The position numbers and the translations under genes are program-made. A DNA stretch of 28,449 nt from Bdellovibrionota bacterium FG-2. Its GTDB lineage: Bacteria; Bdellovibrionota; UBA1018. This document shows, one piece after another, positions 1 through 14,608 of the stretch. Each line of letters begins with the position of its first letter. Positions within the stretch are counted from its first letter, which is position 1. The stretch covers positions 1-28,449 of the forward strand of contig JBBCAV010000157.1 of the NCBI GenBank assembly GCA_051382305.1. The letters run 5' to 3'. Below the pieces are notes generated by a model. The model made no database searches and had not been told where the DNA came from. It worked only from the letters and a program-made list of their open reading frames with translations.

Positions 1-1201
1 CTGTAAGTCCATATCCCTCAAGAATCTGAACCCCACTAATTTGAAAAAATTGGCCAATCTCGGCGGGGAGTGGGGCTCCTCCACAAATGGCGAACCGCAA
101 GCGCCCTCCAAATCGCTTGGCGATTTGATCAAAAACAAGTCGCTTGGCGATTTGATACTGAGCGAGCATTCCAGGGGACTGCCGCTCTTTTTTCCAAACT
201 TTTTCGTAATAGGCGCGCCCCATTCCCATAGCCCAGTGGAAAAAGCTTCGCCTGGCTGGAGAAGCCGAGTCGACGATTGCCATTACTTGGGCGTACGCTT
301 TTTCAAAAACGCGTGGGACCGAAAAGATGAGGGTCGGACGCACTTCTGCGAAATTGGAGAGCAGTTTCTCCATGCTCTCGGCAAAGGCTTGTTTCCAGCC
401 AAACGTGTGAATAGCGATTGATTCTACTTTGCCAATAATGTGAGAGAAGGGGAGAAATGAGAGAACGACTTCGCCCTCTTCTTTGATGTGGCCCTTCATA
501 ACGGCAATGCAATCTTCTAAGACGCTGATCATGTTGTCGTGAGTGAGCATTGCCCCTTTGGGGACCCCAGTCGTTCCAGAGGTGTAGCAAATACTGATAA
601 GATCATCGGGGCGTGAGGTCGCAAGATTGCGATCAAAGCGTGCGGGTTCGCGCTCATCCTCGCGGCGCCCAAGCTCCTTGAGTGCTTGGAGCGTCAGAAC
701 TTCGGGAAACTGCGGTCGGTCCGTGTTTTCGAGGGCTTCACGGCCCGTTTCGTAAGTGATGATTTTTTCGAGATAGGGGAACGCATCGGGCTTGGCTTCA
801 TGTTTCGCCAACAGCTTCTGCAGCTGCTTTTGGTCTTCAACGAATATGATCCGCGCTTCACAATGGTTGATAATGTAGTGAACATCGTCCGCCGTGATAG
901 AAGGATAAATGGGAACCGTGACTCCGGAGGCACCTAAAATCGCCATATCAGAGAGCGACCATTCAAAACGCGTCGTGGAAAGAATCGCCACCCGATCACC
1001 GGGCTTAATTCCAAGGCCCATGAGCCCAAGGGAGACTTGTCGACATTCGCCGTAGAATTCCCTGAAGGTGACTTCTTTCCAGCCTTTCTTTGAAGCAAGC
1101 TCGGGGTCTTTGGGTTTGTAGGTGAAAGCAACGCGATCAGGCGTTACCTTTACGCGCTCAAGAAAGGTATCAGTAACCGTTTTGCGAACGATAAAGGGCA
1201 T
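1..1201 (-). CDS. fadD: Long-chain-fatty-acid--CoA ligase (AMP-dependent synthetase), 3' end truncated by the window edge
   Basis: Manual translation from ATG 1201 gives an open frame to base 1: MPFIVRKTVTDTF...LGIKPGDRVAILS...ICYTSGTTGVPKGAMLTH...SFLPFSHI...FSVPRVFEK...CGGAPL...ILEGYGLT. It contains the AMP-binding YTSGTTGxPKG and GYGLT(E) motifs. It is absent from the ORF track because no stop codon lies inside the window. Confidence 0.93.
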   Translation of the reverse strand, partial: MPFIVRKTVTDTFLERVKVTPDRVAFTYKPKDPELASKKGWKEVTFREFYGECRQVSLGLMGLGIKPGDRVAILSTTRFEWSLSDMAILGASGVTVPIYPSITADDVHYIINHCEARIIFVEDQKQLQKLLAKHEAKPDAFPYLEKIITYETGREALENTDRPQFPEVLTLQALKELGRREDEREPARFDRNLATSRPDDLISICYTSGTTGVPKGAMLTHDNMISVLEDCIAVMKGHIKEEGEVVLSFLPFSHIIGKVESIAIHTFGWKQAFAESMEKLLSNFAEVRPTLIFSVPRVFEKAYAQVMAIVDSASPARRSFFHWAMGMGRAYYEKVWKKERQSPGMLAQYQIAKRLVFDQIAKRFGGRLRFAICGGAPLPAEIGQFFQISGVQILEGYGLT

Positions 1202-1236: not shown

Positions 1237-1237
1237 C

Positions 1238-2689
1238 TTATTTTACGAACAAGCTCATCCATCCGCCGGTTTGGGTGTTCACCAGGTTATAAAAGAATGG
1301 AAGCACCCCGAGCAGGACACTGGCGAGCACAGTCGCAGTAACTGTGAATCCAATAACGGGTGAAGCCTCAAGTGCCTTGGCTCCCGCAAGCGGGGGCTCA
1401 ATGTACATCTGACGAACGATCCGTAAATAGTAGTACAAAGAGATCGTTGAATTAACCGCCGCGACAGCGACAAGCCAGTGGAATCCCGCCCCGGAGGCAA
1501 TGCTAAACAAAAAGAATTTCCCTACAAAACCTGAAAGCGGAGGAATTCCCGCCAGACCGAACAGGCCCACCATCATCGCGAGCGCCATAAGCGGGTTGGT
1601 TTGCGAGAGTCCGCGGTAATCGTTGATTTCTTCTTTTCCCGTTTGGTTGGAGTGAAAAATGATTACGCCGAAAACGGCTAGATTGGTGATGACATAAACC
1701 AACATGTAAAAAATCATGGAGGCGACGCTCTCTTTTTGTGGGCCCAAGAATCCCATGATCATGTAACCGGCTTGAGAGATCGCGCTAAAGGCCATGAAAC
1801 GCTTGATGTTGTTCTGAACAATCGCGACGAGATTTCCGAGACTCATCGTGAGGGCTGCAAACACGGCGATCGCGGTTTGCCAATCCTTGACAAACGGTCC
1901 AAACACCCGAAAAAATAGCTGAAACATGAGAGCAAGTCCCGCCCCCTTTGACGCGACCGAGAGATAGGCGGTGATGGGAGTCGGGGCTCCTTGATAGACT
2001 TCGGCCGCCCAAAAATGAAACGGAACGAGGGTCATCTTAAACCCAATCCCAGAAACAATCAGGGTCACAGCAAACCAAAGGATTGGACTTGCAGTTAGCG
2101 TTTGCGAAATCGCTTGAAGATCGGTTTGACCAGTAAGTCCATAGAGGAGCGAGAAACCATACAAAAGAAGCGCCGAAGCCAGAGCGCCCATGATGACGTA
2201 CTTTAGCCCTGCCTCGCCCGCGTTTCCATCGCGTTTCCAAGAAGCCAACACAAAAAGCGGAATCGTTGCCAGCTCAAGACTTACATAAAGTGTGATCAAA
2301 TCTCGTGCGGAGACTAAGAACATCATTCCTGAAAGCGTAAAAAGGAGGATGGTGTAGTATTCACCACGAAATTTAAGAGGCTGTGAGTCAGCGGTCTCCA
2401 CGACTTTGCGCCCGTCTAGCAGATCAAGGGAAAGCGCGACGGTGATTCCGGTTGAGAGAATAAAAAGGAACTTAAACCACCAGGTCACACTGTCTACGGC
2501 AAATCGCCCGCCGAAGAGCGTGCCCGCTTCCGGCATCTGAAATAGGACAGCCGCTGTAGCTGCGCCAAGCCCCAGAAGCGTGAGAGGCGCCAGTACCGTG
2601 CGGTTCTTTTCAGAGACAAAAAGGTCAACTCCTAAAACCAGGAAGGCAGTTAAGACTACAATTACATCAGGCAAAATGAGTGTGAACAT
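1238..2689 (-). CDS. nuoN: NADH-quinone oxidoreductase subunit N
   Basis: Polytopic membrane protein with LYVSLEL, EAGLKY, FKMTLVPFHFWAAEVYQGAPTP, KRFMAFSAISQAGY and LAGIPPLSGFVGKF. Last gene of the nuo series. Confidence 0.96.
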   Translation of the reverse strand: MFTLILPDVIVVLTAFLVLGVDLFVSEKNRTVLAPLTLLGLGAATAAVLFQMPEAGTLFGGRFAVDSVTWWFKFLFILSTGITVALSLDLLDGRKVVETADSQPLKFRGEYYTILLFTLSGMMFLVSARDLITLYVSLELATIPLFVLASWKRDGNAGEAGLKYVIMGALASALLLYGFSLLYGLTGQTDLQAISQTLTASPILWFAVTLIVSGIGFKMTLVPFHFWAAEVYQGAPTPITAYLSVASKGAGLALMFQLFFRVFGPFVKDWQTAIAVFAALTMSLGNLVAIVQNNIKRFMAFSAISQAGYMIMGFLGPQKESVASMIFYMLVYVITNLAVFGVIIFHSNQTGKEEINDYRGLSQTNPLMALAMMVGLFGLAGIPPLSGFVGKFFLFSIASGAGFHWLVAVAAVNSTISLYYYLRIVRQMYIEPPLAGAKALEASPVIGFTVTATVLASVLLGVLPFFYNLVNTQTGGWMSLFVK

Positions 2690-4248
2690 TAGTGCATCCT
2701 CTCTATCATCCCAACCATTGTCCCGCCCGTAGCATGCAGGCGGTTTACGAGTGGATAAATAGAAGATTCGATTAAATTAATCAGCGTACCCGGCATGAGT
2801 CCCACGACAGCAAGGGTCGTGACGAGCATACCCGTGCTAATACGTTCCGTAAGTGTTGCATCAGTGAGATGCTTAAAATGAGAGTCAGTAATCGGGCCCG
2901 CAAAAGCTCTCGATAAGCCGCGAAGGACATAAACAGCCGTGACCACGACCGAACAAGTCGCGAGAATCGTGAGGACTCGCATCGTGGTGATTTCGTGCCA
3001 GGGATTTCCAAAAAACCCGCCTAGGAAAACGCTGGACTCCGCTACAAATCCAGAGAAACCGGGCAAACCCAAAGAAGCAAGGCCCGCGATATAAAAACAA
3101 GTGGCAAGCCAAGGCATTACTTTGGCGAGCCCGCCCATTTCTGGAATCATTCTAGTGTGGGTTCGGCCATAGACCATCCCGATTAAACCGAAGAAAAGCC
3201 CCGTCATGATCCCATGGCTGAACATCTGAATCACCGCGCCCTTGAAGGACATCATGTTGAGAGTCGCCACACCAAAGAGCACAAACCCGCAGTGACTCAC
3301 GGAAGAGTAGGCGGTGAAATATTTGAGGTCTTTTTGCGTGATCGCGCCAAAGGAGCCATACAGAATATTGATTGTCGTCACTGCCATGAAAAATAATCCC
3401 CAATACTGAGCGCCTTCGGGAAGAAGATATACGGCAATACGAAGGGCACCATATCCTCCAAGTTTCATGAGCACGCCCGCATGAAGCATGGATACCGCGG
3501 TTGGCGCTGAAGCGTGCCCATCCGGTGACCAGGTGTGAAACGGATAAAGCGCGCCCAATACCCCAAATCCAACGAAAAGCATGGGGAAAACCCATCTCTG
3601 AAAATCAGATGTGTAAGTCGCTTGGCCCAAAGCAATGAGATCGAAACTATGGGTTCCAGAGACATGGTAAAGGGCTAAGAAACCCACGAGAATGAATGCG
3701 GAACCCACCATGAGCATGAGTGTGAGTTTCATGGCGGAGTATTCCTTTGGACCGGTCCCCCAGATTCCAATGAGGAGGTACATCGGAAGCACTGCAAGTT
3801 CGTAAAATACAAAGAACAAAAACAAATCAAAGCTCACAAAAACGCCAAACACGCCGGTGACCAAAGTGAGAAGGAGTCCAAAAAATTCTTTACGTCGAAC
3901 TTCGACGTTCCAACTGGCCATGACGCCTGTAAAGATGATGATCGAGGTTAAGATAATCATCGCCATGGAGATTCCATCGAGTCCAACAAAATATTGAATG
4001 CCCATTGACTCAAACCAGGGCATCCGCTCTACCAAGTAGAGCTTGGTTGCAAGCGAAGTTTTCATAGAGGCAAAATCAGGCGAGGCGGCGACCCAATACT
4101 TCCAGGTTACAAATGCCGTTAAAAGTAGATGCGCGCCGGTTCCAAGGGCCGCGACCCAGCGAATGTTCCGCTCTTTTGAGCTCGGAGTGAGGACCACCGC
4201 TAAAGTTGTTAAAAACGGTAAGAGTACAAGCCAGCTAACTAAACCCAT
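2689..4248 (-). CDS. nuoM: NADH-quinone oxidoreductase subunit M
   Basis: Motifs GLDGIS, DLFLFFVFYELAVLPMY, PFHTWSPDGHASAPT, LMKLGGYG, AYSSVSH and SLGLPGFSGFVAE. Start re-called at ATG 4248 (MGLVSW), 2 bp after the nuoL stop. TAATG overlap with nuoN. Confidence 0.96.
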   Translation of the reverse strand: MGLVSWLVLLPFLTTLAVVLTPSSKERNIRWVAALGTGAHLLLTAFVTWKYWVAASPDFASMKTSLATKLYLVERMPWFESMGIQYFVGLDGISMAMIILTSIIIFTGVMASWNVEVRRKEFFGLLLTLVTGVFGVFVSFDLFLFFVFYELAVLPMYLLIGIWGTGPKEYSAMKLTLMLMVGSAFILVGFLALYHVSGTHSFDLIALGQATYTSDFQRWVFPMLFVGFGVLGALYPFHTWSPDGHASAPTAVSMLHAGVLMKLGGYGALRIAVYLLPEGAQYWGLFFMAVTTINILYGSFGAITQKDLKYFTAYSSVSHCGFVLFGVATLNMMSFKGAVIQMFSHGIMTGLFFGLIGMVYGRTHTRMIPEMGGLAKVMPWLATCFYIAGLASLGLPGFSGFVAESSVFLGGFFGNPWHEITTMRVLTILATCSVVVTAVYVLRGLSRAFAGPITDSHFKHLTDATLTERISTGMLVTTLAVVGLMPGTLINLIESSIYPLVNRLHATGGTMVGMIERMH

Positions 4249-4250
4249 GA

Positions 4251-6260
4251 TCAATGCCTCACTAATGAAATGATCCAAAGAACCAAGAGAATTCCCAGTA
4301 CTCCGGATACGAACCAACTGCCATATGTTTGAACCTGTCCCGTTTGCGTGCGGCTAAGTCCTGCTCCCATTTTGCGTGTGCCCCAGGCACTTAAGTTCAC
4401 GCCCCCATCGACCACATGTCTGTCAAACCAAGCGATGGGCGCTGCAACAAACTGAAAAATAACCTTGTGGGTTACAAAGAGGTAGACTTCATCAATATAG
4501 AACTTATTTTTGATTGTTGTGTAGACTCCACCCAAGGACTTAGCGAGCGCTTCAATCCGAGTCGTCTCGCCTGAATAGAAAAAGGCCGCCAGCGCAAGTC
4601 CAGCCAATGCAACCCCAGTGCTCGGCAGCGCGACCGCGAGATCAATTCCTCCGTGAGCCGCGCCTTCTCCCCCGTGAGAAGCCGTGAGACTTACGAATTG
4701 TGCAAAGGGAACAAAACCCGAGAAAATCGAAAAAACTGCTAAAATCAAAAGAGGAATTAGCATTACAGGCGGCGATTCATGCGCATGATGTGCACCGTCC
4801 GTGCGGTGATTGCCCCAGAAGGTCACGAAATAAATTCGTGACATGTAAAAGGCCGTCATTCCTGCGACCAAAAGACCCACGGCAAAAATATTAGGGTGTC
4901 CGCCCTCAAGTGCGGCAGAAAGGATCTCGTCTTTTGAAAAAAAGCCAGAAAGCGGAAAAATCCCTGAAATTGCAAGCGTCGCAATCAAGAACGTGATGTG
5001 CGTCACTGGCATTTTCTTACGAAGTCCTCCCATATCCCAGATGCTATTGCTATGAGCGGCATGAATCACTGAGCCTGCTCCCAGGAACAAGAGTGCTTTG
5101 AAGAAGGCATGATTAAAAAGGTGAAACATCGAGGCCGTGTAACCCAGGGGGTGTTCAAACGAAGAAACGCCCAACGCGAACATCATATAGCCGAGTTGAC
5201 TAAGCGTCGAGAACGCCAAGACTCGCTTGATGTCGTCTTGGGTACAACCAATGAGGGCTGCAAATAAGCACGTGAAGGCTCCGATATAGGCGACGACAAG
5301 GAGTGCGTCGCCTGAAGCGGCGAAAACAGGGAACATCCGCGCTACGAGATAAACGCCAGCAACGACCATGGTAGCTGCGTGGATCAGTGCGGAAACAGGA
5401 GTCGGACCTTCCATCGCATCCGGTAGCCAGATATGAAGCGGGAACATCGCGCTTTTTCCTGCGGCGCCCATGAAGATGAGGACCATCGAAACAGTTACGA
5501 GGCTTACGCCTAAGAAAGTTCCACCCTGAGCAAAAAACTTTGCGCCGACTTCGGGGTGGGTCAAGTACATAAAATCAAAGGGCTGAAGCCCCTGAGTCAC
5601 GCTGGCGGGGAGTTCGCCAAAGATTTGAAAACCAAAAAAGCCTAAGATGAGCATTCCGATTAAGAAGCCCAGGTCCGCAAAACGGGTCACGATGAAAGCT
5701 TTCTTGGAGGCAGCCACCGCCGAGGGGCGCTCAAAATAGTAGCCAATTAAGAGAAACGAACTGGCGCCGACGAGCTCCCAGAACACAAACATCTGAAGGA
5801 TGTTTGGGGCCGAAACCAGGCCCAGCATGCTAAAAGTAAAAAGATTGAGGTAAGTGAAATACCGTCCATATCCATCTTCTCCATGCAAGTATCCCGTCGA
5901 ATAGAGGTGAACGAGCGCACTCACCGTGGTGACCACGACCATAAGCATGACCGAAATAGGGTCCGCGAGCACGCCCAGACTCACAACCAGGTTCTCTTGG
6001 TATCTGAGCCATTCTGCACTCCAAGGGACAAAGGCTTTATGAATTCCCTCAACCGCGCCTGGAAGGAGGAAAAAATACTCATAGGCCAGGCGGTAGGCAA
6101 AGCAAGCAGTGAGAAAAATGGCCAACGTAGCAAAGATTCCTGCCGCCTTCTTGGAAAGAGGCCGAATGAAAAGTCCCACCGTTAAAAACGAAAAAAATGG
6201 CAAAGCTATGATGAGCCAAGCGTTTTTCAGAGCAAATCCAAGTTCGATTGTTTGATCCAT
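4251..6260 (-). CDS. nuoL: NADH-quinone oxidoreductase subunit L
   Basis: Motifs FWELVG..SFLLIG, KAFIVTRFAD, GKSAMFPLHIWLPDAMEGPTPVSALIHAATMV, HAFFKALLFL, FFSKDEI and C-terminal QTGQVQTY. Confidence 0.97.
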   Translation of the reverse strand: MDQTIELGFALKNAWLIIALPFFSFLTVGLFIRPLSKKAAGIFATLAIFLTACFAYRLAYEYFFLLPGAVEGIHKAFVPWSAEWLRYQENLVVSLGVLADPISVMLMVVVTTVSALVHLYSTGYLHGEDGYGRYFTYLNLFTFSMLGLVSAPNILQMFVFWELVGASSFLLIGYYFERPSAVAASKKAFIVTRFADLGFLIGMLILGFFGFQIFGELPASVTQGLQPFDFMYLTHPEVGAKFFAQGGTFLGVSLVTVSMVLIFMGAAGKSAMFPLHIWLPDAMEGPTPVSALIHAATMVVAGVYLVARMFPVFAASGDALLVVAYIGAFTCLFAALIGCTQDDIKRVLAFSTLSQLGYMMFALGVSSFEHPLGYTASMFHLFNHAFFKALLFLGAGSVIHAAHSNSIWDMGGLRKKMPVTHITFLIATLAISGIFPLSGFFSKDEILSAALEGGHPNIFAVGLLVAGMTAFYMSRIYFVTFWGNHRTDGAHHAHESPPVMLIPLLILAVFSIFSGFVPFAQFVSLTASHGGEGAAHGGIDLAVALPSTGVALAGLALAAFFYSGETTRIEALAKSLGGVYTTIKNKFYIDEVYLFVTHKVIFQFVAAPIAWFDRHVVDGGVNLSAWGTRKMGAGLSRTQTGQVQTYGSWFVSGVLGILLVLWIISLVRH

Positions 6261-6263
6261 ATT

Positions 6264-6605
6264 CTAGCCCTTCATCACATTCAGCTCGGTCACATCCACC
6301 GTTTTTCGATTCTGGAAAAGCGCCACAAAAATAGCCATTCCCACCACGACTTCGGCCGCGGCAATCGCAATGACAAATATGCCCATCACTTGGCCATCGA
6401 CATTTGCGGAATTTATGAAGCGATTAAATAAAATAAAGTTTAGGGCGCCCGAATTCAGTAAAAGTTCAACGGACATAAGAATTCCGACGGCGTTTCGGCG
6501 CGTTAGGAGTCCGTAGAGCCCAATCGAAAAGAGAAGAGAAGAAAGAACCAGCCAATGCAAAACGCTGGGGACGTTCTCAAGAAATGGAGCGATATTTTCC
6601 AACAT
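6264..6605 (-). CDS. nuoK: NADH-quinone oxidoreductase subunit K
   Basis: LFSIGLYGLLTRRN, MSVELLLN and AAAEVVVG, with both conserved glutamates. Confidence 0.95.
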   Translation of the reverse strand: MLENIAPFLENVPSVLHWLVLSSLLFSIGLYGLLTRRNAVGILMSVELLLNSGALNFILFNRFINSANVDGQVMGIFVIAIAAAEVVVGMAIFVALFQNRKTVDVTELNVMKG

Positions 6606-6606
6606 A

Positions 6607-7155
6607 CTACTGCCCTCCTTTGACGGGCGTTTTTCGTGCGATCACAATCCCACCAATCAATGCCGCCAGGAGAAGCAACGAGATGATTTCAAAAGGTAGG
6701 ACGAATCCTTTTTCGCCCTGGTCAAGAAATGCGCGGCCAATAGCCGCAGTGGAGTCATGAATTTGTCCGGTTTGCGCAGTCAAAGTGTTGCCAGGAGTGT
6801 TAAAGGTCGAGTTCACAAAAATCCCCACAGAAATTCCAAAAAATGACGCCGAAAGAAGGAATGCCACAAGTCTGCGTGAGAGCGTTGGCCTTTGCTCCAG
6901 AAGGCTACTTGAGCGAGTAAGCATCACTGCGAATACGAGCAGGACCACGATTCCGCCGACATAGACGAGAATTTGAACTCCGGCGAGAAACTCGGCTCCC
7001 AAGAGGATGTAGAAGCCAGCGCTGACGCCCAAGACTCCCATGAGGTAGATTGCTGCCCTGAGGATTCTGGGTGTACAGACCGTCGCGAGGGCACAAAAAA
7101 CTGCGATCGCAGAAAAGAGATAAAACAGCAGCGTGTGAACGAAGTTTTCAATCAT
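6607..7155 (-). CDS. nuoJ: NADH-quinone oxidoreductase subunit J
   Basis: AEFLAGVQILVYVGGIVVL and LPFEIISLLLLAALIG. Start re-called at ATG 7155 (MIENFV), overlapping the nuoI stop. Confidence 0.94.
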   Translation of the reverse strand: MIENFVHTLLFYLFSAIAVFCALATVCTPRILRAAIYLMGVLGVSAGFYILLGAEFLAGVQILVYVGGIVVLLVFAVMLTRSSSLLEQRPTLSRRLVAFLLSASFFGISVGIFVNSTFNTPGNTLTAQTGQIHDSTAAIGRAFLDQGEKGFVLPFEIISLLLLAALIGGIVIARKTPVKGGQ

Positions 7156-7783
7156 AGGAGTTCGCCTTTTCACTTTCAGGAGGTTTCCCACATGCTGGGA
7201 CACCGGCGATCGCCGATCCATTCATGGGAATGTGGCCGGAGTAGACTCCGCGCTCATCTATGTTTCGTTTGCGTTCCTCGGGATCAACGATCTTGGCTAG
7301 GGCCGGCGCCGCGGGGCCGGCATATCGATTGAGATTATAGATTAAAAGCCTTCGATCATAGACAGAGTTTTCAAATTCGCCATTCATTTTGAGGGCTGTA
7401 AAAGGGCATACGATCACGCAAAGATTGCAAAAAGTGCAGCTATCCATGCGCCAAATGAAATGATCGATTTCTTGGCGCTTGCTCGTTGCGTTCTTGCGAT
7501 CTACAACGGTGATCGAGCGGTTCGGGCAGGCATCTTCGCAAATATGGCAACCCGTGCACTTGTGATAGCCGTTTTCGTCATGGGGCATGGTGAGACGGAT
7601 TCGGGCCCGCTCGACCATTTTCAGGGTTTCACGATTTTCGGGGTACTGTTGAGTCACGACTGTTGAAGGGTGTGAAAAGTACCCAAAGGTAATTTTCATG
7701 CCCTTGAGCAGAGAGCCGATCCCCGTGAAGAATTCCTGAACAGGTCCTCTAGGTTTAATGGTAGGCTTAGTTGGTGTTTGCAT
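7148..7783 (-). CDS. nuoI: NADH-quinone oxidoreductase subunit I (2x[4Fe-4S]) with C-terminal extension
   Basis: VTQQYPE, CTGCHICEDACP and CTFCNLCVIVCP ferredoxin-type motifs. Lies between nuoH and nuoJ. Confidence 0.94.
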   Translation of the reverse strand: MQTPTKPTIKPRGPVQEFFTGIGSLLKGMKITFGYFSHPSTVVTQQYPENRETLKMVERARIRLTMPHDENGYHKCTGCHICEDACPNRSITVVDRKNATSKRQEIDHFIWRMDSCTFCNLCVIVCPFTALKMNGEFENSVYDRRLLIYNLNRYAGPAAPALAKIVDPEERKRNIDERGVYSGHIPMNGSAIAGVPACGKPPESEKANSYD

Positions 7784-7790
7784 AATGTTT

Positions 7791-8882
7791 TCAGCTCGGA
7801 AAGAAGTAGAGGTTATACAGCACGACGACGGCTGCGACGAAAAGGTTTACGAAGCCGATGGGGAGCAGGATTTTCCACTCCAACTTCATGAGTTGATCCA
7901 CACGAAGGCGCGGAAAAGTCCAGCGGAACCACATGATCAGGAAAATAAGAAACGAGGTTTTGCCCGCAAACCAAAGACCAGGAGGGATTAAATCCATGAC
8001 GGCGTTGAAGCCATTGAGATTTCCGATGTGGAACGGCATCCATCCGCCCAAAAAAAGCGTCGCGCAAACGGCAGAAACGATGAACATGTTGATAAACTCG
8101 GCCAGAAAGAAAAATGCAAAGCGCATTCCAGAATACTCCGTATGAAAACCAGCGGTGAGCTCACTTTCGCCTTCGGCAATATCAAAAGGAGTTCGGTTGA
8201 TCTCTGCTACCGAGGCGATCAGGAAAATAATGAAGGACACAAGCCCAACTCCATGCGCGCGCCAAATCCACCAGCCTTGCGCTTGGCTCTCGATAATTTT
8301 TGAAAGCTGTAGCGTTCCCGAAAAAAGTACGATTATCAGCAGGGCCAGTGTTGCGGAAAGTTCATAAGAGATAATCTGTGCTCCCGCCCGCATACCGCCG
8401 ATCAGAGACCATTTATTATTTGAACTCCAACCCGCAGTGAGTAGCCCCAAAACGCCAAGACCGCTGACGGCGCTGATATAGAGGACCCCGATATTGACAT
8501 CAGTTACCTGCAAAGTGGGGCTCAACGGCAAGACGGCGATGGTCAAAAGTGCCCCTAGAAGACAAAGAAAAGGCGCGAGGATATGAAGCAGTTTGTCCGC
8601 TTTTTCAGGAACGATGTCTTCTTTCATTAAGAGTTTTAGAGTGTCTGCTATTGACTGAAGAATGCCGTGCCATCCAACCCTCATCGGCCCAAGTCGACAT
8701 TGAAAATGAGCAGCGATTTTCCGCTCAGCGTAAATCAGCACCATGCCCAGGAGGGCAACAAATGCAGCCGCGCCCGCGAGTCCTAAAACAATATATCCAA
8801 TGGAATACCATACGTTTTCCGGGAGTGCTTCTTGCGCGCGTTGTGCGATCGTCTTCACTTGCCAAACAGTTGGTTCACTCAT
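7791..8882 (-). CDS. nuoH: NADH-quinone oxidoreductase subunit H
   Basis: ERKIAAHFQCRLGP, ADTLKLLMKE, AQIISYE, AEINRTPFDIAEGESELTAGFHTEYSG and PRLRVDQLM. Confidence 0.97.
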   Translation of the reverse strand: MSEPTVWQVKTIAQRAQEALPENVWYSIGYIVLGLAGAAAFVALLGMVLIYAERKIAAHFQCRLGPMRVGWHGILQSIADTLKLLMKEDIVPEKADKLLHILAPFLCLLGALLTIAVLPLSPTLQVTDVNIGVLYISAVSGLGVLGLLTAGWSSNNKWSLIGGMRAGAQIISYELSATLALLIIVLFSGTLQLSKIIESQAQGWWIWRAHGVGLVSFIIFLIASVAEINRTPFDIAEGESELTAGFHTEYSGMRFAFFFLAEFINMFIVSAVCATLFLGGWMPFHIGNLNGFNAVMDLIPPGLWFAGKTSFLIFLIMWFRWTFPRLRVDQLMKLEWKILLPIGFVNLFVAAVVVLYNLYFFPS

Positions 8883-8896
8883 TTTAGATTATTACC

Positions 8897-10060
8897 TCAA
8901 CGATCAATGTCGGGAACGACAATATCTAACGAAGAAAGGATGGCCACCAAATCGGCAATTCGCCATCCCCGGGCAATGGAGGTGATGCTCCAAATATTGT
9001 TGTAATTCGGGGTCCGCAAATGAATGCGATAAGGCCGGTGATCTTTGCCATCCGACACGAGCATGACGCCTAAGACGCCACGGGCGGTTTCCATATGACT
9101 ATAACTGAGCCCTTCGGGAAGCCGAATCTTTGCTCCGGGCTTCATGAGCATGGTTTTACCTTCGGGGATATTATCAATGAGTTGCTCGATGATGCTAAGC
9201 GATTGTTTCATCTCTTCAATGCGAACTTGGTATCGATCTGCCGTGTCGCCTTGGGTTCCCAGGGCGACCTCAAAATTCACTTTAGAATACATCCCGTAGG
9301 GCTCACGCTTGCGAAGATCGTAATTCACGCCACTTGCGCGCAGCACGGGTCCGGTCGTTCCCATTGAAATAGCGGTTTTTGAGTCTAAAATGCCCACGCC
9401 TTTGATGCGCTTTTGGACGATGATGTTTTCACTAAAGAGGGTCTCGTATTCTTTGAGTTTGGGTCTGAAGTAACTGATAAACGCTTTAACTTCTTTTTGA
9501 AAATCGGGATGGAGATCAAACATTAAACCGCCGGGTTGAATGTAGTTCATCGTGAGCCGCGCGCCCGTCGTCTTTTCTAAGATGTCGGTGATGCCTTCTC
9601 GATCACGAAAACCGTACAAGAATGGGGTAAACGCTCCTAGATCCATTCCGAAAACGCCCCACCAAAGTTGATGGCTTTGAATCCTTTGGAGCTCGGCCAT
9701 CAGCGTACGGATAGTTTCGATGCGCTCATTGGTTTCGATTTTGGCAGCTCTTTCAACCGCTGCTGAGACAGCCCAGTTGTTCATCAATGCGGAAAGATAA
9801 TCGATACGATCAGACATGTGAACGAACTGTCGATAGCCGAGGTGTTCACCCACCTTTTCCATGCCGCGGTGGACATAACCTAAGACAGGGATGACTTCGC
9901 GAACGGTCTCTCCGTCGAGTTTTAGTACCAGACGCAAAACTCCGTGGGTTGAAGGATGTTGCGGGCCCATGTTCACGAAATACTCCTGAGTGGCCAAGGG
10001 GCTATCGGGAGATAACGAAGGTCGGGTGCGCTCTTCTAATGTACGGATGGCGATACTCAT
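8897..10060 (-). CDS. nuoD: NADH-quinone oxidoreductase subunit D
   Basis: NMGPQHPSTHGVLRL, GYVHRGMEK, DRIDY and C-terminal DIVVPDIDR. The quinone-site His and Tyr are present. No NiFe-binding CxxC motifs. Confidence 0.96.
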   Translation of the reverse strand: MSIAIRTLEERTRPSLSPDSPLATQEYFVNMGPQHPSTHGVLRLVLKLDGETVREVIPVLGYVHRGMEKVGEHLGYRQFVHMSDRIDYLSALMNNWAVSAAVERAAKIETNERIETIRTLMAELQRIQSHQLWWGVFGMDLGAFTPFLYGFRDREGITDILEKTTGARLTMNYIQPGGLMFDLHPDFQKEVKAFISYFRPKLKEYETLFSENIIVQKRIKGVGILDSKTAISMGTTGPVLRASGVNYDLRKREPYGMYSKVNFEVALGTQGDTADRYQVRIEEMKQSLSIIEQLIDNIPEGKTMLMKPGAKIRLPEGLSYSHMETARGVLGVMLVSDGKDHRPYRIHLRTPNYNNIWSITSIARGWRIADLVAILSSLDIVVPDIDR

Positions 10061-10521
10061 TCTGGACGCTCCAAAAGGTAATCATCTTTGTAGTCTTTTC
10101 GCAGGGGAAAACCTTGCCACCCATCATCGAGCAAAACGCGCCTTAGATCAGGATGGTTTTTGTAGAGGATGCCGAACATGTCGTATGCTTCGCGTTCTTG
10201 CCACTCACCAATTTGCCAGAGCGAAGAGACCGAAGGCACAACAGGGTTTTCCCGCGAAACGAAAGCGGTCACGCGTAGGGCGTGGGAGTGTGCGGTGGAG
10301 TAGAGTTCGTAGATCAGCTCAAAGCGCTGCTCTGCGATCCAGTCAATGGCGGTATGAGTACAGAGCATATCAAACGCGAGACTGGTGTCGGTTTTGAGCT
10401 TGGAGAGAAACGCGAACAACGCTTCTACAGGAATAGTCACTGTGAGGCGATCGGTTTTTTCTCGGGGCGTAGCCCTGGAATCAAGCGCGAGTACTGCGGA
10501 TGAGAGAACTTGAGTTTCCAC
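10057..10521 (-). CDS. nuoC: NADH-quinone oxidoreductase subunit C
   Basis: [23 protein letters not shown] and FPLRKDY. Start uncertain: GTG 10521 (preceded by AAAGGT) is preferred, ATG 10557 is the alternative. Confidence 0.93.
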
Positions 10522-11191
10522 TTCTGAGTAACCTTTCTGTTGATTCAGCTGTTGCATTTTCCGCGGCCACGAGATCGACGCGAGCTTCCTTCTCAAGAAG
10601 GTGCACGAGATCCCGACGAATGTCTTCCATGGTAATTCCTGGGGGGAGTTCCGCCAAAACGGGTTTGCGGCGAATCCCTGGTTGTCGGATCGTTTCGCCT
10701 TCCCGGATCATTTTTTGGAGCGTTAGGAGTCCGTAAAAATAGCCCTCAGGCCGTGGAGGACAGCCGGGAACATAAACATCCACGGGGATAATTTCATCTG
10801 CACCACGAACGGTGGAATAGGATCCATAAACGAAGGGGCCACCCGAGATCGCACACGACCCTGTTGCAATGACATAACGAGGCTCAGCCATTTGCTCGTA
10901 CAAAGTGCGTAGCGTGGGGGCCATTCGTTTTACAACCGTTCCGGCAATGACAAGTACGTCGGCTTGTCTGGGGCTTGGTCGCGCCACTTCAGCGCCAAAT
11001 CGCGCCACGTCGTGCCTGGGAGCACCGGTCGCCATCATGACTTCAATAGCACAGCAGCTCGTTCCGAAGGTCAGAGGCCATAAACTATTGAGGCGCGCCC
11101 AGTTGATGAGCTTATCCATGCTGGCGAGGAGGACAGAACCTCCTGGGACAGGCTCCAAAAAAAACGGAAGTTTCTCTACAATTAGACCCAT
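10481..11191 (-). CDS. nuoB: NADH-quinone oxidoreductase subunit B with long C-terminal extension
   Basis: [31 protein letters not shown] and [13 protein letters not shown] (N2 cluster ligands). Start at ATG 11191 in the EWV*/MGL overlap with nuoA. Confidence 0.96.
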
Positions 11192-11532
11192 TCGAGTGCC
11201 CCTTTTCTCCACGCATAAGCAAGGCCAATGACCAGAACGAGGATAAATATGCCCGCTTCAATCAGGGCAGTCGCGCCGACTTCGCGAAACACCATGGCCC
11301 AAGGATAGAGAAACGCTGCTTCCACATCGAAGACCAAGAAGAGCAGCCCAAAGAGGTAATAACCTACGTTGAATTGAACCCATCCCGATCCGATTGGTTC
11401 TTCACCGCATTCATAGGTCGCAACTTTGAGCCCTTTTGCACGATGGGGTGCAACGAGTCTGGAGGCAATGAGCCCACCAAAAACAAAGACGGCCGCTAAA
11501 AGGACGAACAAGAAGACGAAGAAGAAATCCAT
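11182..11532 (-). CDS. nuoA: NADH-quinone oxidoreductase subunit A
   Basis: [22 protein letters not shown] and WRKGALEWV. Confidence 0.96.
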
Positions 11533-11545
11533 GAGTGCCTTTTCC

Positions 11546-12598
11546 TTAGGATAGGGAGGATAGGGGAGAAATTTCGCCGCTAGCGCCTAAGTTCCAAGCA
11601 TTGCCTTCACATAAAAGGTCGTTCAGGTTTCGTTTCTTGGGGTAGGCAGATCTAAACTGGTGTACCGGCTCGTCCACCTTTCGGAAAATCCCCAGCGGCA
11701 CAGGCGCCTCTGGGTAGTCCATTAAGGAGAGAAGGTACGCCAAGGACGAATCCTTGCGGTGAATGTCGTGAACCAAAATGTCGTTCATGGTCACGCCGTT
11801 TTCACCGATTTTTACGACTTCGGGTTTCAGGTCGCGGCTTAAGCGAATGCCTTTGTTTCGTTCCGCACCAAAAAGCATCGGCTCACCTTGCTTCAGTCGC
11901 AAAGTCGTCTCAGCTTTGGTGGCTTTGTCGGTGAGGGGACCGTAGGTGCCATCGTTGAAAATCACGCAATTGATCATGATCTCGATGAAGGCTACGCCTT
12001 TGTGCGAAGCGGCCGCCGTGTATGCTTCACGAAGCAGCTCTCCGTCCGTATCCGGCACACGTGCCGCAAAGGTAGCTCCAGCTGCAAGCGCTAAAGCCAG
12101 TGGGCGCACGGCATTTTCAAAGTTTCCGAAGGGAGCCGTTTTGGTCTTCATTCCGGGCTTTGTGGTTGGAGACGTTTGTCCCTTGGTCAGTCCATAGATC
12201 TGGTTGTTGAACAAAGACAGCTTGATGTCCGCGTTTCGGCGCATCAGGTGCAAGAAGTGATTGCCGCCGATGGACAGCGCGTCTCCGTCTCCGGTTATAA
12301 CCCAAACCGAAAGATCAGGGTTTGCAAGCTTTACTCCCGCAGCAATCGTAGGGGCACGACCGTGAATGGTGTGAAACCCGTAGCAGTCGGCATAATAAGG
12401 AAGGCGTGAAGAGCAGCCGATCCCGGAAATAATGGCGAATTTCTCGCGGGGAATTCCCGTGTTAGGAAAAACGCTGGTGAGACTGTTAAATACACTGAAA
12501 CAGCCGCAACCCGCACACCATCTGGGGTCGGTTTTGCTTAGGAAATCCTTGCGCGTCAGGCCGCTGGCTTTTGGTGTTTCTGGCGTTGAATTGCTCAT
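11546..12598 (-). CDS. korB: 2-oxoacid:ferredoxin oxidoreductase subunit beta (TPP and [4Fe-4S] binding)
   Basis: WCAGCG, SGIGCSSR, HTIHGRA, TGDGD...NNQIYGLTKGQTSPT (TPP motif) and NCVIFND. Confidence 0.93.
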   Translation of the reverse strand: MSNSTPETPKASGLTRKDFLSKTDPRWCAGCGCFSVFNSLTSVFPNTGIPREKFAIISGIGCSSRLPYYADCYGFHTIHGRAPTIAAGVKLANPDLSVWVITGDGDALSIGGNHFLHLMRRNADIKLSLFNNQIYGLTKGQTSPTTKPGMKTKTAPFGNFENAVRPLALALAAGATFAARVPDTDGELLREAYTAAASHKGVAFIEIMINCVIFNDGTYGPLTDKATKAETTLRLKQGEPMLFGAERNKGIRLSRDLKPEVVKIGENGVTMNDILVHDIHRKDSSLAYLLSLMDYPEAPVPLGIFRKVDEPVHQFRSAYPKKRNLNDLLCEGNAWNLGASGEISPLSSLS

Positions 12599-14457
12599 GA
12601 GTTTGCCCCTGTCTTGATTTCGAGAAGAGTACGAACTTTTGCTTCGATTTCATCAGCGCGGAAAGGTTGCCCTTGGACTTTACTGTAGCGTTCAAAATCC
12701 ATGAGGAACTCGCCGCGAAGCATGAACCACAATTGGCCCATGTTATTTTCTGGAATCAGCACCTTCTTATATTTTTTAAGAAGTGGCTTCAGATCGCGAG
12801 GAAGGGGATTTAGGTGGCGAAGATGTGCGCAAGCCACGGGAACCCCTTGTTTAGTGAGGTTTCGCACGGCCTGTCTGATCACGCCTTTTGTGCCGCCCCA
12901 ACCTAGGATCAAAATGTCGGCGTTGGGATTGCCTTCGACCGTCATCGGAGGAATATCGTCCGCAATGCGTGCGATCTTCTCGGCCCGAAGATGGGTCATT
13001 TTTTCGTGATTCAAAGGATTGGCGCTGACCGTTCCGGTGCGATCTTCTTTTTCGAGTCCACCGATACGGTGCTCAAGTCCTGGTGTTCCAACAGGTGCCC
13101 ATGGGCGAGCCAGTGTCTTAGGATCTCGTTCATAGGGAAGGAAGTTCGTTGGATCTGTTCTGAAGTTTGCCTTGATCTCTGGCAGCTCTTCAAGTTTTGG
13201 GACCTTCCAGGCGCCCGCGCCGTTTCCGAGGTATCCGTCGCTCAGTACAATGACTGGAGTCATGTACTTGATCGCCAAGCGCGCTGCTTCAACCACGGTG
13301 TCGAAACAATCTTGAGGAGTCGAAGATGCCAAGATCGCGATTGGGGATTCGCCGTGGCGACCCCACATTGCTTGCGCCAAGTCGGATTGTTCTGTTTTGG
13401 TAGGAAGACCGGTTGATGGACCTCCTCGCTGAACGTTAACGATCACGAGTGGGAGTTCAACGATCATCGCAAGATTTAGGAACTCACTTTTCAGCGACAT
13501 TCCGGGACCTGAGGTTGTCGTTGCCGCAAGAGCACCGGCGAATGATGCTCCAACGGCGGAGCCGATCCCTGCAATTTCGTCTTCTGCTTGAAACACGGTG
13601 GCGAAATCGGGGTGTTTGCAAAGCTCGTGCATGATGTCGGTCGCAGGAGTGATCGGATAACTACCCAAGAATAGTTTAAGTCCTGAGCGCTGTGCGGCAG
13701 CAATCAGGCCGAGCGCTGCAGCGGTGTTTCCAGTGACGTTACGATACACGCCGGCCTTTTTCGGGACCTTGCGTTTGACGACAGTATAATGAGTGTCGTT
13801 GACTTCGCCGGATTCGCCCAAATTCCATCCGGCATCGAGAGCGCGGGTGTTGGCGTCGATTAATTCCGGCTTAGCTTTGAATTTTTTCTGCACCCATTGA
13901 TTGGTGAACGTCTTGTCACGCTTGAACATCGAGTACATCAAGCCTAAAGCGACGAAGTTTTTGCAACGGTCGATGGCTTTAGGGCTCATCGTGCCACCTT
14001 CGAGGGCTTTTTGTGCCACTTTGGACATTCCGACCTTCATGACTTTGAATTTTTGAAGCTCAGTGCTGGTGAGCGGATTTTCAGCATAACCTGCTTTTTC
14101 GAGGTTTTTGTCGATAAAGGCGTCTTCATTGACGATGATGGTTCCGCCTGCTTTCATGCTTGCAAGGTTTACTTTAAGCGCCGCAGGATTCATGGCGACC
14201 AGCACATCGTATTCATCGCCAGCGGTGTAAACATCCTCAGACGCAAAGCAGATTTGGAATCCCGACACGCCGAAAATCGTTCCGGCAGGGGCGCGAATTT
14301 CTGAAGGATAATCAGGGAGCGTTGCGACTTCGTCTCCCATCATGGCGGAGGTGATCGTGAACTGATCTCCTACGAGCTGCATGCCGTCACCGGAGTCTCC
14401 GGCAAGGCGAATGACAATTTGATCCATTTCAACAGATTTTATATTGGCAACAGACAT
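12595..14457 (-). CDS. korA: 2-oxoacid:ferredoxin oxidoreductase subunit alpha (gamma-alpha fusion)
   Basis: AGDSGDGMQL, YPSEIRAPAG, SYPITPA, QAEDEIA, TTSGPG and VQRGGPSTGLPTK. ATGA overlap with korB. Substrate (2-oxoglutarate or other) is not certain. Confidence 0.93.
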   Translation of the reverse strand: MSVANIKSVEMDQIVIRLAGDSGDGMQLVGDQFTITSAMMGDEVATLPDYPSEIRAPAGTIFGVSGFQICFASEDVYTAGDEYDVLVAMNPAALKVNLASMKAGGTIIVNEDAFIDKNLEKAGYAENPLTSTELQKFKVMKVGMSKVAQKALEGGTMSPKAIDRCKNFVALGLMYSMFKRDKTFTNQWVQKKFKAKPELIDANTRALDAGWNLGESGEVNDTHYTVVKRKVPKKAGVYRNVTGNTAAALGLIAAAQRSGLKLFLGSYPITPATDIMHELCKHPDFATVFQAEDEIAGIGSAVGASFAGALAATTTSGPGMSLKSEFLNLAMIVELPLVIVNVQRGGPSTGLPTKTEQSDLAQAMWGRHGESPIAILASSTPQDCFDTVVEAARLAIKYMTPVIVLSDGYLGNGAGAWKVPKLEELPEIKANFRTDPTNFLPYERDPKTLARPWAPVGTPGLEHRIGGLEKEDRTGTVSANPLNHEKMTHLRAEKIARIADDIPPMTVEGNPNADILILGWGGTKGVIRQAVRNLTKQGVPVACAHLRHLNPLPRDLKPLLKKYKKVLIPENNMGQLWFMLRGEFLMDFERYSKVQGQPFRADEIEAKVRTLLEIKTGANS

Positions 14458-14608
14458 GAAGGTTATGCCTCTTTCTCAGTCGGTGATGTGTAATGCGATA
14501 ACGCTAACACAAAAAACTTGGAAATTGTATACGTATGTCTTGAGAACCATGGGAAGAAGAGCTATCGCATTTTTATGCGGGTGTTCAAGATTTGAAGGAG
14601 CATGATTT

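What the first reader, a model, noticed from the sequence alone, without database searches (positions are those of the whole stretch)
1238..14457. korAB heads an 11-subunit complex I operon lacking NuoEFG: candidate 2-oxoacid:quinone oxidoreductase proton pump
Seen: korA-korB-nuoA-B-C-D-H-I-J-K-L-M-N lie on one strand. All junctions overlap or are 14 bp or less (korB to nuoA is 13 bp, too short for a terminator). nuoD is followed directly by nuoH, so nuoE/F/G are absent, and no ferredoxin or flavodoxin gene is in the window. Established: headless complexes I (cyanobacterial NDH-1, Fpo-like complexes) accept electrons from ferredoxin. In Campylobacter, 2-oxoglutarate oxidoreductase feeds complex I via flavodoxin. 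Two-subunit KorAB has no ferredoxin-like delta subunit. Inference: KorAB replaces the NADH-input module, either through a ferredoxin encoded elsewhere or by docking directly, with the 2x[4Fe-4S] NuoI as acceptor. This would couple oxidative decarboxylation of a 2-oxoacid to quinone reduction and ion pumping without NADH.
Basis: partly seen in the sequence, partly recalled or inferred. Interest (0 to 1): 0.85.

Follow-up and report, generated by a model that had tools for sequence, protein, structure and literature searches.

The report
Ferredoxin-fed headless complex I operon
An uncultured Oligoflexia bacterium packs a 2-oxoacid-oxidising enzyme (KorAB) and a complex I without its NADH-binding head into one tight operon, and relatives add a small ferredoxin to the same operon, which supports an already proposed ferredoxin-driven respiration and not a new kind of machine.

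Summary
korA-korB-nuoABCDHIJKLMN lie on the minus strand (14457 to 1238). Every junction overlaps or is 14 nt or less, and nuoD runs straight into nuoH.

The linkage is not unique. This Nuo type occurs in 13 of 401 genomes sampled from the phylum, and in 12 of 75 in the family. In all 13, korAB sits directly upstream.

The genome's only nuoEFG genes found lie inside a separate, complete 14-gene nuo operon.

The decisive addition is a 95-aa YfhL-type 2[4Fe-4S] ferredoxin gene. It follows nuoN directly in four relatives. It follows nuoN plus a PFOR-type gene in three more. It follows korB in a basal relative that lacks nuo. Its spread in the phylum almost matches that of this KorAB clade. The window's genome carries two copies elsewhere.

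Best reading (0.65): 2-oxoacid to KorAB to soluble ferredoxin to 11-subunit Nuo to quinone, with proton pumping. Direct docking of KorAB has no support.

The idea and a looser gene cluster are already in print (Castelle 2013). This scan also noted a related operon before (e1-4619949). I class it as a new member of a known kind, with moderate interest.

The parts
12595..14457 (-). korA, 620 aa: alpha subunit of a two-subunit 2-oxoacid:ferredoxin oxidoreductase (gamma-like POR domain + POR_N + PFOR_II)
   Evidence: Pfam. NCBIfam TIGR03710, 643 bits against a cut-off of 482.75. Nearest solved chain 6n2n_A, E 8e-81.
11546..12598 (-). korB, 350 aa: TPP-binding beta subunit with four invariant Cys (C28, C31, C62, C211) for one [4Fe-4S] cluster and no Fer4 domain
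   Evidence: Pfam TPP_enzyme_C. Invariant columns in a 20-row alignment. Nearest solved chain 6n2n_B, E 4.5e-55, aligned over residues 10-216 only. Below NCBIfam cut-offs.
11182..11532 (-). nuoA, 116 aa; its ATG lies 13 nt after the korB stop
   Evidence: Pfam Oxidored_q4. Sequence read. Junctions.
10481..11191 (-). nuoB, 236 aa from the ATG at 11191; carries the CC...C...C cysteines of cluster N2 and a C-terminal tail
   Evidence: Pfam Oxidored_q6. NF005012, 227.5 against 116. Cysteines read.
10057..10596 (-). nuoC, up to 179 aa; start uncertain (TTG at 10596 or a later ATG), overlaps the end of nuoB
   Evidence: Pfam Complex1_30kDa. TIGR01961, 131.2 against 122.45..
8897..10060 (-). nuoD, 387 aa; keeps the GPQHPSTHG motif
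   Evidence: Pfam Complex1_49kDa. NF004739, 433.2 against 360. Invariant columns.
7791..8882 (-). nuoH, 363 aa; starts 14 nt after nuoD, so there is no room for nuoEFG
   Evidence: Pfam NADHdh..
7148..7783 (-). nuoI, 211 aa: two CxxCxxCxxxCP motifs plus a clade-specific conserved C-terminal extension (about residues 154-195, window 7199-7324)
   Evidence: Fer4 families. Alignments. The extension is not aligned in Bacteroidota NuoI.
6607..7155 (-). nuoJ, 182 aa from the ATG at 7155
   Evidence: Pfam Oxidored_q3..
6264..6605 (-). nuoK, 113 aa
   Evidence: Pfam Oxidored_q2. NF004320, 102.9 against 57.
4251..6260 (-). nuoL, 669 aa, antiporter-like subunit
   Evidence: NF005141, 629.1 against 556.
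2689..4248 (-). nuoM, 519 aa from the ATG at 4248
   Evidence: TIGR01972, 449.3 against 263.8..
1238..2689 (-). nuoN, 483 aa, last nuo gene
   Evidence: TIGR01770, 407.6 against 332.6.
2..1201 (-). AMP-binding acyl-CoA ligase gene, cut by the contig end, 36 nt after nuoN; possibly co-transcribed; also follows nuoN in the same-genus genome G263
   Evidence: Pfam AMP-binding. 88% identical ORF after nuoN in L225.

Best explanation
The cluster is one operon for a ferredoxin-linked respiratory module. KorAB, a two-subunit 2-oxoacid:ferredoxin oxidoreductase with a single [4Fe-4S] cluster, oxidatively decarboxylates a 2-oxoacid to the acyl-CoA. The substrate is probably 2-oxoglutarate. KorAB then reduces a soluble YfhL-type 2[4Fe-4S] ferredoxin. 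That ferredoxin delivers the electrons to the exposed NuoI/NuoB iron-sulfur chain of an 11-subunit complex I that has no NADH-oxidising NuoEFG module. This complex reduces quinone and pumps protons.

Shown: the gene content, the tight packing, the co-inheritance, and the presence of the ferredoxin gene in the same operon in relatives. Inferred: the substrate, the direction of electron flow, ferredoxin docking at NuoI, and ion pumping.

In this genome the ferredoxin is encoded elsewhere, in two copies. A PFOR and further OFOR genes elsewhere in the genome may feed the same pool.
For: 1. Anatomy. Thirteen genes lie on one strand with junctions of 14 nt or less. nuoD to nuoH is 14 nt. KorB has four invariant Cys and no Fer4 domain. 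NuoI has two 4Fe-4S motifs.

2. Co-inheritance. A NuoD orthologue (E 1e-120 or better, 72% identity or more) is found in 13 of 401 phylum genomes and 12 of 75 family genomes. These are exactly the genomes where korAB lies directly upstream of nuoA. KorAB and NuoD trees share sub-clades.

3. Ferredoxin in the operon. A 95-aa YfhL-family ferredoxin (NF033683, 101 bits against a cut-off of 86) follows nuoN directly in G173, G299, G377 and Bdellovibrionales RBG_16_40_8. It follows nuoN plus a PFOR (G205) or a split PFOR-like pair (G302, G278). It follows korB in G392 and precedes korA in G239, both of which lack the nuo genes.

4. Phyletic match. This ferredoxin is found in 13 of 401 phylum genomes. 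Ten of them are among the 13 korAB-nuo genomes. Two more have korAB-fdx adjacency, and one has the split PFOR-fdx pair.

5. Own genome (85% complete). Two ferredoxin copies are present (C401, C190). No flavodoxin was found and no RnfC above cut-off. nuoEFG were found only inside a complete separate operon.

6. Independent linkages elsewhere. PFOR lies directly upstream of related 11-subunit nuo operons in L145 and L180. In L011, PFOR-korAB is joined to a different NuoEFG-less Nuo lineage.
Against: - No ferredoxin gene lies in this window. In this genus the ferredoxin genes sit beside sucA and beside sdh genes, so the protein may be a general carrier.
- Three of the 13 korAB-nuo genomes gave no ferredoxin hit (G290, G371, G353; 75-89% complete).
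- One member of the same NuoD clade (L142) has no korAB in the 6.6 kb upstream.
- There are no transcript data.
- The papers I read report no biochemical proof that any bacterial Nuo of this type oxidises ferredoxin.
- KorB, NuoA, NuoI and NuoJ stay below NCBIfam cut-offs.
- Gene adjacency shows co-use, not electron transfer.
Confidence: 0.65

Rival explanations
1. Direct docking. KorAB binds the top of the 11-subunit complex in place of the N-module and passes electrons from its single cluster straight to NuoI, with no soluble carrier.
For: - korB and nuoA are only 13 nt apart, and korAB is always adjacent to this Nuo type.
- KorAB has no delta or Fer4 subunit.
- NuoI carries a conserved C-terminal extension of about 40 residues that is specific to this clade and could be a docking element.
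Against: - The operon in relatives holds a soluble ferredoxin gene, and often a second or third 2-oxoacid oxidoreductase (PFOR, split PFOR-like). One shared carrier explains this more simply.
- The ferredoxin's phyletic spread follows the KorAB clade.
- The same KorAB clade works without any nuo next to it but with fdx (G392, G239).
Confidence: 0.07
2. Co-regulation only. The two enzymes are expressed together, for example under low oxygen, but the 11-subunit complex takes electrons from some other donor and KorAB-reduced ferredoxin goes elsewhere.
For: - The own-genome ferredoxin genes lie near sucA and sdh, not near nuo.
- A group-4 hydrogenase-like cluster and a third nuo-like cluster could also use ferredoxin.
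- L142 has this Nuo without korAB.
Against: - The adjacency holds in 13 of 13 genomes across 10 genera, at 54-68% KorB identity outside the window's own genus and 94% within it.
- Ferredoxin lies downstream of nuoN in seven relatives.
- No alternative input-module gene was seen in or beside the operon in the stretches examined.
Confidence: 0.13
3. Reverse operation. The complex uses proton-motive force to drive electrons from quinol up to ferredoxin, and KorAB (with PFOR) then works as a synthase that fixes CO2.
For: The nearest solved relative, 6n2n, is, by my recall, a CO2-fixing 2-oxoglutarate:ferredoxin oxidoreductase. These enzymes are reversible, as stated in PMC3903129.
Against: - The genome has a 2-oxoglutarate dehydrogenase E1 gene and succinate dehydrogenase genes, which fit an oxidative cycle.
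- An acyl-CoA ligase follows nuoN.
Confidence: 0.1
4. Shared N-module. NuoEFG from the canonical operon on another contig also serve this complex, which is then an ordinary NADH dehydrogenase isozyme.
For: Spero et al. (PMC4453560, passage read) raise this for one genome that has a single nuoEFG set and two copies of the other nuo genes.
Against: - Here nuoE, F and G sit in line inside a complete nuoA-N operon.
- The two sets are distant: NuoD 36.5% and NuoI about 30% identical. In the NuoD tree they lie far apart.
Confidence: 0.03

Closest known systems
Zixibacteria RBG-1 ferredoxin gene cluster (Castelle et al. 2013, PMC3903129; passages read)
   Same: An 11-subunit complex I without the NADH module is clustered with pyruvate:ferredoxin and oxoglutarate:ferredoxin oxidoreductases. 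The authors propose that the complex re-oxidises ferredoxin and builds proton-motive force.
   Different: That cluster is large and mixed (NfnAB, Mvh/Hdr, PFOR, OGOR) and is described only in text. Here korAB is joined to nuoA by 13 nt in a 13-gene operon, in another phylum, and relatives carry a dedicated ferredoxin gene at the operon's end.
11-subunit Nuo of Bacteroidota and Ignavibacteriota
   Same: Same gene order, nuoABCDHIJKLMN. These are among the closest groups in the NuoD tree: one of three unresolved lineages in a 37-row group with SH-aLRT 95, at 53-60% identity.
   Different: Of the 80 fetched NuoD relatives, only the Bdellovibrionota locus (L143) has korAB upstream, and two (L145, L180) have a PFOR upstream. 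Their NuoI lacks the C-terminal extension.
Campylobacter jejuni complex I fed through flavodoxin
   Same: A complex I that does not use NADH and takes electrons from a small carrier. Spero et al. list it as a flavodoxin-dependent case (PMC4453560).
   Different: By recall, Campylobacter keeps nuoG and has two substitute genes in the E/F position. Here D runs straight into H. No flavodoxin was found in this genome, which is 85% complete.
Cyanobacterial NDH-1 and FpoF-less Fpo complexes (ferredoxin-dependent; recalled, and cited in PMC3903129 and PMC4453560)
   Same: Headless complex I relatives thought or shown to accept electrons from ferredoxin.
   Different: They belong to different Nuo lineages with their own extra subunits, and they are not operon-linked to a 2-oxoacid oxidoreductase.
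Haloarchaeal KorAB / Fdx / Nuo proposal (Pfeiffer et al. 2021, PMC8305020; passages read)
   Same: A two-subunit KorAB reduces a ferredoxin, and a NuoEFG-less Nuo is suggested as the ferredoxin re-oxidiser.
   Different: The paper lists these genes under separate, non-neighbouring locus tags. It also calls the link unresolved.
Earlier finding of this scan, e1-4619949
   Same: A korAB + NuoEFG-less nuo + ferredoxin operon of about 13.6 kb. It shares short words with this window's NuoD, so it is a relative of this operon.
   Different: That operon holds the ferredoxin gene; this window does not. It is an unchecked AI note. I did not test its count of 47 species.

Membership tests
Two-subunit 2-oxoacid:ferredoxin oxidoreductase (KorAB / OAFO type) | Alpha subunit joining the gamma-like POR domain with POR_N and domain II | tested here: met
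   Pfam POR 23-210, POR_N 263-477, PFOR_II 513-577. TIGR03710, 643 bits against a cut-off of 482.75.
Two-subunit 2-oxoacid:ferredoxin oxidoreductase (KorAB / OAFO type) | Beta subunit with a TPP-binding domain and four Cys for one [4Fe-4S] cluster | tested here: met
   TPP_enzyme_C, 109.8 bits. C28, C31, C62 and C211 are invariant in 20 rows. However, TIGR02177 scores 232.9 against a cut-off of 261.9, so no NCBIfam model names it.
Two-subunit 2-oxoacid:ferredoxin oxidoreductase (KorAB / OAFO type) | No delta (2x[4Fe-4S]) subunit or domain | tested here: met
   No Fer4 family in KorA or KorB. No other ORF with the motif in the window.
Two-subunit 2-oxoacid:ferredoxin oxidoreductase (KorAB / OAFO type) | 2-oxoglutarate as substrate and ferredoxin as acceptor | not testable with these tools
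   No equivalog cut-off was reached. The nearest solved chains are 6n2n, 5b46 and 8ys5.
11-subunit (NuoEFG-less) complex I | nuoA, B, C, D, H, I, J, K, L, M, N present in order on one strand | tested here: met
11-subunit (NuoEFG-less) complex I | No nuoE, F or G in the operon, and none orphaned elsewhere | tested here: met
   nuoD to nuoH is 14 nt. NuoE, F and G were found in line in a complete operon on contig C384. A further NuoF-like 645-aa frame on C350 was not characterised. The genome is 85% complete.
11-subunit (NuoEFG-less) complex I | Iron-sulfur ligands of NuoB (N2) and NuoI (two clusters), and the NuoD quinone-site motif | tested here: met
   NuoB cysteines read. NuoI C76/79/82/86 and C116/119/122/126 are invariant. 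NuoD GPQHPSTHG and Y88 are invariant. Their roles are recalled from Thermus complex I.
11-subunit (NuoEFG-less) complex I | Ferredoxin:quinone oxidoreductase activity with ion pumping | not testable with these tools
   Inference from gene linkage only.
Campylobacter-type flavodoxin-dependent complex I | Substitute genes in the nuoE/nuoF position, nuoG kept, flavodoxin as donor | tested here: not met
   There are no genes between nuoD and nuoH. No Flavodoxin_1 match in the genome, which is 85% complete.
YfhL-family 2[4Fe-4S] ferredoxin (the proposed carrier) | Match to the NCBIfam equivalog above its cut-off | tested here: met
   NF033683 scores 100.9 bits (own genome, C401 copy) and 101.7 bits (G302), against a cut-off of 86.
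Cyanobacterial NDH-1 | Oxygenic-phototroph-specific subunits such as NdhS | not tested
   No search was made. The NuoD tree places the window with Bacteroidota-type Nuo.

The most novel reading that the evidence does not exclude
KorAB, and in relatives PFOR, does not merely share a ferredoxin pool with the complex. It forms a physical supercomplex with the 11-subunit Nuo. The clade-specific C-terminal extension of NuoI would hold either the ferredoxin or KorAB itself at the entry cluster. The result would be a dedicated 2-oxoacid:quinone oxidoreductase proton pump.
Probability: 0.08. Interest if true: 0.85.

Novelty: new member of a known kind. Interest (0 to 1): 0.45.

Why it matters
What feeds the NuoEFG-less complex I of many bacteria has long been open. 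The passages I read from Castelle 2013, Spero 2015 and Pfeiffer 2021 still call the ferredoxin link speculative or unresolved.

Here the candidate donor enzyme, the complex and, in relatives, the carrier itself are written into one operon, and they are inherited together across ten genera. That gives a short, concrete parts list (KorAB, a YfhL-type ferredoxin, 11 Nuo subunits) for a reconstitution experiment.

If the route holds, oxidising 2-oxoglutarate through ferredoxin instead of NADH sends lower-potential electrons into the pump. This would affect energy yield in low-oxygen habitats.

It does not establish a new type of enzyme.

Tried and rejected
- Promoter and terminator scan of 900-15000 gave 12 promoter-like sites against 11.0 expected, and 26 terminator-like sites against 18.7 (sd 5.2). 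There is no usable signal, and nothing at the korB-nuoA junction.
- Sequencing runs: one holder was listed and none is on record as RNA. No RNA holder was listed, so co-transcription could not be checked and read laying was not used.
- Complex prediction with KorA 241-620 + KorB + NuoI as partner gave 'no answer' (score 0.00, mark 0.32). This counts neither for nor against binding.
- ATP-citrate lyase (PF16114) gave no match in the genome, but the family rang in none of the 14 control genomes either. The result is uninformative.
Known relatives such as G173 did not appear. The counts '1 of 80 KorB relatives with nuo downstream' and '1 of 80 NuoD relatives with korAB upstream' therefore come from a truncated sample and are not a census.
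- The single-protein scan found only 5 loci.
- Rejected: orphan NuoEFG completing this complex.
- Rejected: adjacency unique to this genome.
- Rejected: flavodoxin as carrier, since none was found.
- Literature searches for a described korAB-nuo operon found the general idea but no description of this operon in Oligoflexia. Subscription-only papers and supplements (for example Castelle 2013, Table S1) were not seen.


Full report
OBSERVATION

The window is contig C157 of a metagenome-assembled genome (433 contigs, 85% complete, 4.4% contamination). Its nearest named relative is a MAG labelled Oligoflexia, with 94% KorB identity.

Thirteen ORFs lie head to tail on the minus strand from 14457 to 1238.
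- KorA has POR, POR_N and PFOR_II.
- KorB has TPP_enzyme_C.
- NuoA, B, C, D, H, I, J, K, L, M and N have their own families.

NCBIfam cut-offs are passed by KorA (TIGR03710, 643 against 482.75 bits) and by NuoB, C, D, H, K, L, M and N. They are not passed by KorB, NuoA, NuoI or NuoJ.

With start codons refined, the junctions are -4, 13, -10, up to -116 (nuoB/nuoC, start uncertain), -4, 14, 7, -8, 1, 3, 2 and -1 nt. nuoD is followed after 14 nt by nuoH.

The only ORF in the window with a 4Fe-4S motif is NuoI.

An acyl-CoA ligase gene follows nuoN after 36 nt. A consensus scan for promoters and terminators gave nothing above chance.

THE REST OF THE GENOME

The genome holds three further complex-I-like clusters:
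- Contig C384, continuing on C193, carries a canonical operon with nuoE (16962-17438), nuoF and nuoG in line between nuoD and nuoH.
- Directly upstream of it lies a third, very divergent nuo-like set without E, F or G.
- Contig C190 carries a group-4-hydrogenase-like set.

The only nuoE, F and G genes found are therefore not orphans. A further NuoF-like 645-aa frame on C350 was not characterised. The window's NuoD is 36.5% identical to the canonical one.

No flavodoxin and no RnfC above cut-off were found, in an 85%-complete genome. A PFOR of about 1220 aa and two more POR_N proteins exist elsewhere.

IS THE ADJACENCY CONSERVED?

A KorB search of 401 genomes sampled across the phylum gave a top tier of full- or near-full-length matches (43-94% identity) in 48 genomes besides the window's own. 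I fetched all 48 contexts and mapped the 13 window proteins on them:
- 12 show korA-korB-nuoA onward in the same order. One of these, G353, is cut by a contig end after nuoC.
- 35 do not.
- 1 (G006) has only 52 nt downstream of korB and is uninformative.

A NuoD search of the same 401 genomes at E 1e-120 found orthologues (72-91% identity) in 13 genomes, counting the window's own. These are exactly the 13 with the adjacency.

In the whole family the figure is 12 of 75 genomes and 9 of 48 genera. One more is in a sister family of the same order.

So this Nuo type was seen in the phylum sample only behind korAB, while KorAB orthologues occur widely without it.

Outside the sample, Bdellovibrionales RBG_16_40_8 has the same operon (L066/L143). 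A contig labelled Enterobacteriaceae (L011) has PFOR-korA-korB-nuoA to L.

One exception is L142, labelled Lentisphaerae. Its NuoD nests in the same clade, but there is no korAB in the 6.6 kb upstream, where RhuM- and DUF4160-type genes lie.

THE FERREDOXIN

I scanned the flanks of the related operons for 4Fe-4S motifs and found a 95-aa ORF. NCBIfam names it a YfhL-family dicluster ferredoxin (about 101 bits against a cut-off of 86). Its positions are:
- G173, G299, G377: 78-105 nt after nuoN, same strand.
- RBG_16_40_8: just after nuoN.
- G302 and G278: after nuoN and a split PFOR-like gene pair.
- G205: after nuoN and a full PFOR (TIGR02176, 1854 bits).
- G392: directly after korB. This genome has korAB of the same clade but no nuo.
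- G239: before korA.

Across the 401 phylum genomes the ferredoxin is found in 13. Ten are among the 13 korAB-nuo genomes. The others are G392, G239 and G311; G311 has the split PFOR-like pair next to the ferredoxin gene. It was not found in G290, G371 or G353 (75-89% complete).

The window's genome has two copies. One lies on C401, between a GAPDH-PGK fusion ORF and a 2-oxoglutarate dehydrogenase E1 gene; the same-genus genome G263 has the same arrangement. The other lies on C190, between fur and succinate dehydrogenase genes.

TREES

In a quick IQ-TREE of 93 NuoD rows, the window sits in a 12-row clade (SH-aLRT 100). That clade lies in a 37-row group (95) with the 11-subunit Nuo of Bacteroidota and Ignavibacteriota and one Verrucomicrobiota row. 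Fibrobacter is next.

The genome's own canonical and third NuoD, and the NuoD of L011, lie far away on long branches. Their exact placement is unsure.

In a FastTree of concatenated KorA+KorB (121 rows), a 14-row clade (support 100) holds all 13 korAB-nuo rows, L011 included, plus G392.

Sub-clades agree between the two trees: {window, G299, G377, RBG_16_40_8}, {G371, G205, G254} and {G173, G278}.

My inference is that a Bacteroidota-type 11-gene nuo operon was taken up once and placed between korB and fdx of an existing korAB-fdx operon, and was then inherited with it. In L011 the same KorAB clade is joined to a different EFG-less Nuo lineage.

Related Bacteroidota and Balneolota operons (L145, L180) have a PFOR, 61% identical to that of G205, upstream of nuoA.

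MECHANISM

KorB has four invariant cysteines and no ferredoxin-like domain. The nearest solved enzymes are two-subunit 2-oxoacid:ferredoxin oxidoreductases (6n2n, 5b46).

NuoI keeps both cluster motifs. NuoB keeps the N2 cysteines. NuoD keeps GPQHPSTHG and Y88.

The best-supported route is 2-oxoacid to KorAB, to soluble YfhL-type ferredoxin, to NuoI/NuoB, to quinone, with proton pumping by NuoL, M and N. Substrate, direction and pumping are inferred.

NuoI has a conserved C-terminal extension of about 40 residues. It is found in this clade but not aligned in Bacteroidota NuoI. It is a candidate docking element for the ferredoxin, or less likely for KorAB.

Direct docking has no evidence. The complex-prediction job gave no answer and counts neither way.

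KNOWN OR NEW

Castelle et al. 2013 (PMC3903129, passages read) describe a gene cluster in Zixibacteria RBG-1 that joins an 11-subunit complex I with pyruvate and oxoglutarate ferredoxin oxidoreductases. They propose ferredoxin oxidation by that complex.

Spero et al. 2015 (PMC4453560, passages) and Pfeiffer et al. 2021 (PMC8305020, passages) discuss the same idea for partial nuo operons and for haloarchaea.

Four full-text searches found no description of this operon in Oligoflexia.

This scan has noted a related operon with ferredoxin before (e1-4619949, which shares words with this NuoD), and two similar cases in other phyla.

The finding is thus a clean new member of a known, still unproven kind. 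Its value is a compact parts list for an experiment.

Noticed in passing
window 7199-7324 (NuoI residues about 154-195): A conserved C-terminal extension of NuoI (YAGP...DPEERK...SGP.PL.G) is shared by the korAB-linked clade. It is not aligned in Bacteroidota NuoI, and its function is unknown.
   Followed up: partly
G000 contig C384 (L231) 4691-14151: A third nuo-like cluster (B, C, D, H, I, ..., M, N) without E, F or G lies directly upstream of the canonical nuo operon. Its NuoD has VGPYHLALPAP where others have GPQHPSTHG, so it may not reduce quinone in the usual way.
   Followed up: partly
G000 contig C190 (L230) 801-4668 and 11237-18547: A second YfhL-type ferredoxin gene sits between fur and succinate dehydrogenase genes. 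The same contig holds a group-4-hydrogenase-like membrane complex (a fused Fer4/NuoB-like protein, a NuoC/D-like 506-aa protein, and antiporter-like subunits).
   Followed up: partly
G000 contig C401 (L229) 568-2871: One 767-aa ORF joins glyceraldehyde-3-phosphate dehydrogenase and phosphoglycerate kinase domains. It is 94% conserved in the same-genus genome G263. A ferredoxin gene and a 2-oxoglutarate dehydrogenase E1 gene follow it.
   Followed up: no
window 15416-16140 (+): A nucleoside phosphorylase (PNP_UDP_1) gene seems split over two frames: an 81-aa ORF, then a 164-aa ORF that matches only profile positions 64-228. This is either a frameshift or an assembly error.
   Followed up: partly
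window 10481-10596: nuoB and nuoC overlap by up to 116 nt in different frames if the TTG start of nuoC is used. Overlapping alignments of 19-110 nt also occur in several relatives (L014, L018, L021, L023, L024, L026).
   Followed up: partly
L145 1761-6357 and L180 1-2143: In a Roseivirgaceae (Bacteroidota) contig and a Balneolales contig, a PFOR and a dihydroorotate-dehydrogenase-like gene lie directly upstream of nuoA of an 11-subunit nuo operon.
   Followed up: partly
L142 1-6616: A contig labelled Lentisphaerae has a NuoD nested in the Oligoflexia clade (74% identity). Upstream of nuoA it has RhuM- and DUF4160-type genes and a NuoF-like gene on the opposite strand, but no korAB.
   Followed up: partly
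L011 (whole locus): The contig is labelled Enterobacteriaceae, yet its KorAB nests among the Oligoflexia rows and its Nuo belongs to another EFG-less lineage. The taxonomic label looks unreliable.
   Followed up: no
window 26132-27634 (-): A 500-aa multihaem c-type cytochrome ORF (Cytochrome_C554 and related families) lies next to tsaD and a TPR/BamD-like lipoprotein gene.
   Followed up: no
L100, L116, L129: In three Bacteroidota contigs a ferredoxin-like ORF lies divergently just upstream of korA.
   Followed up: no
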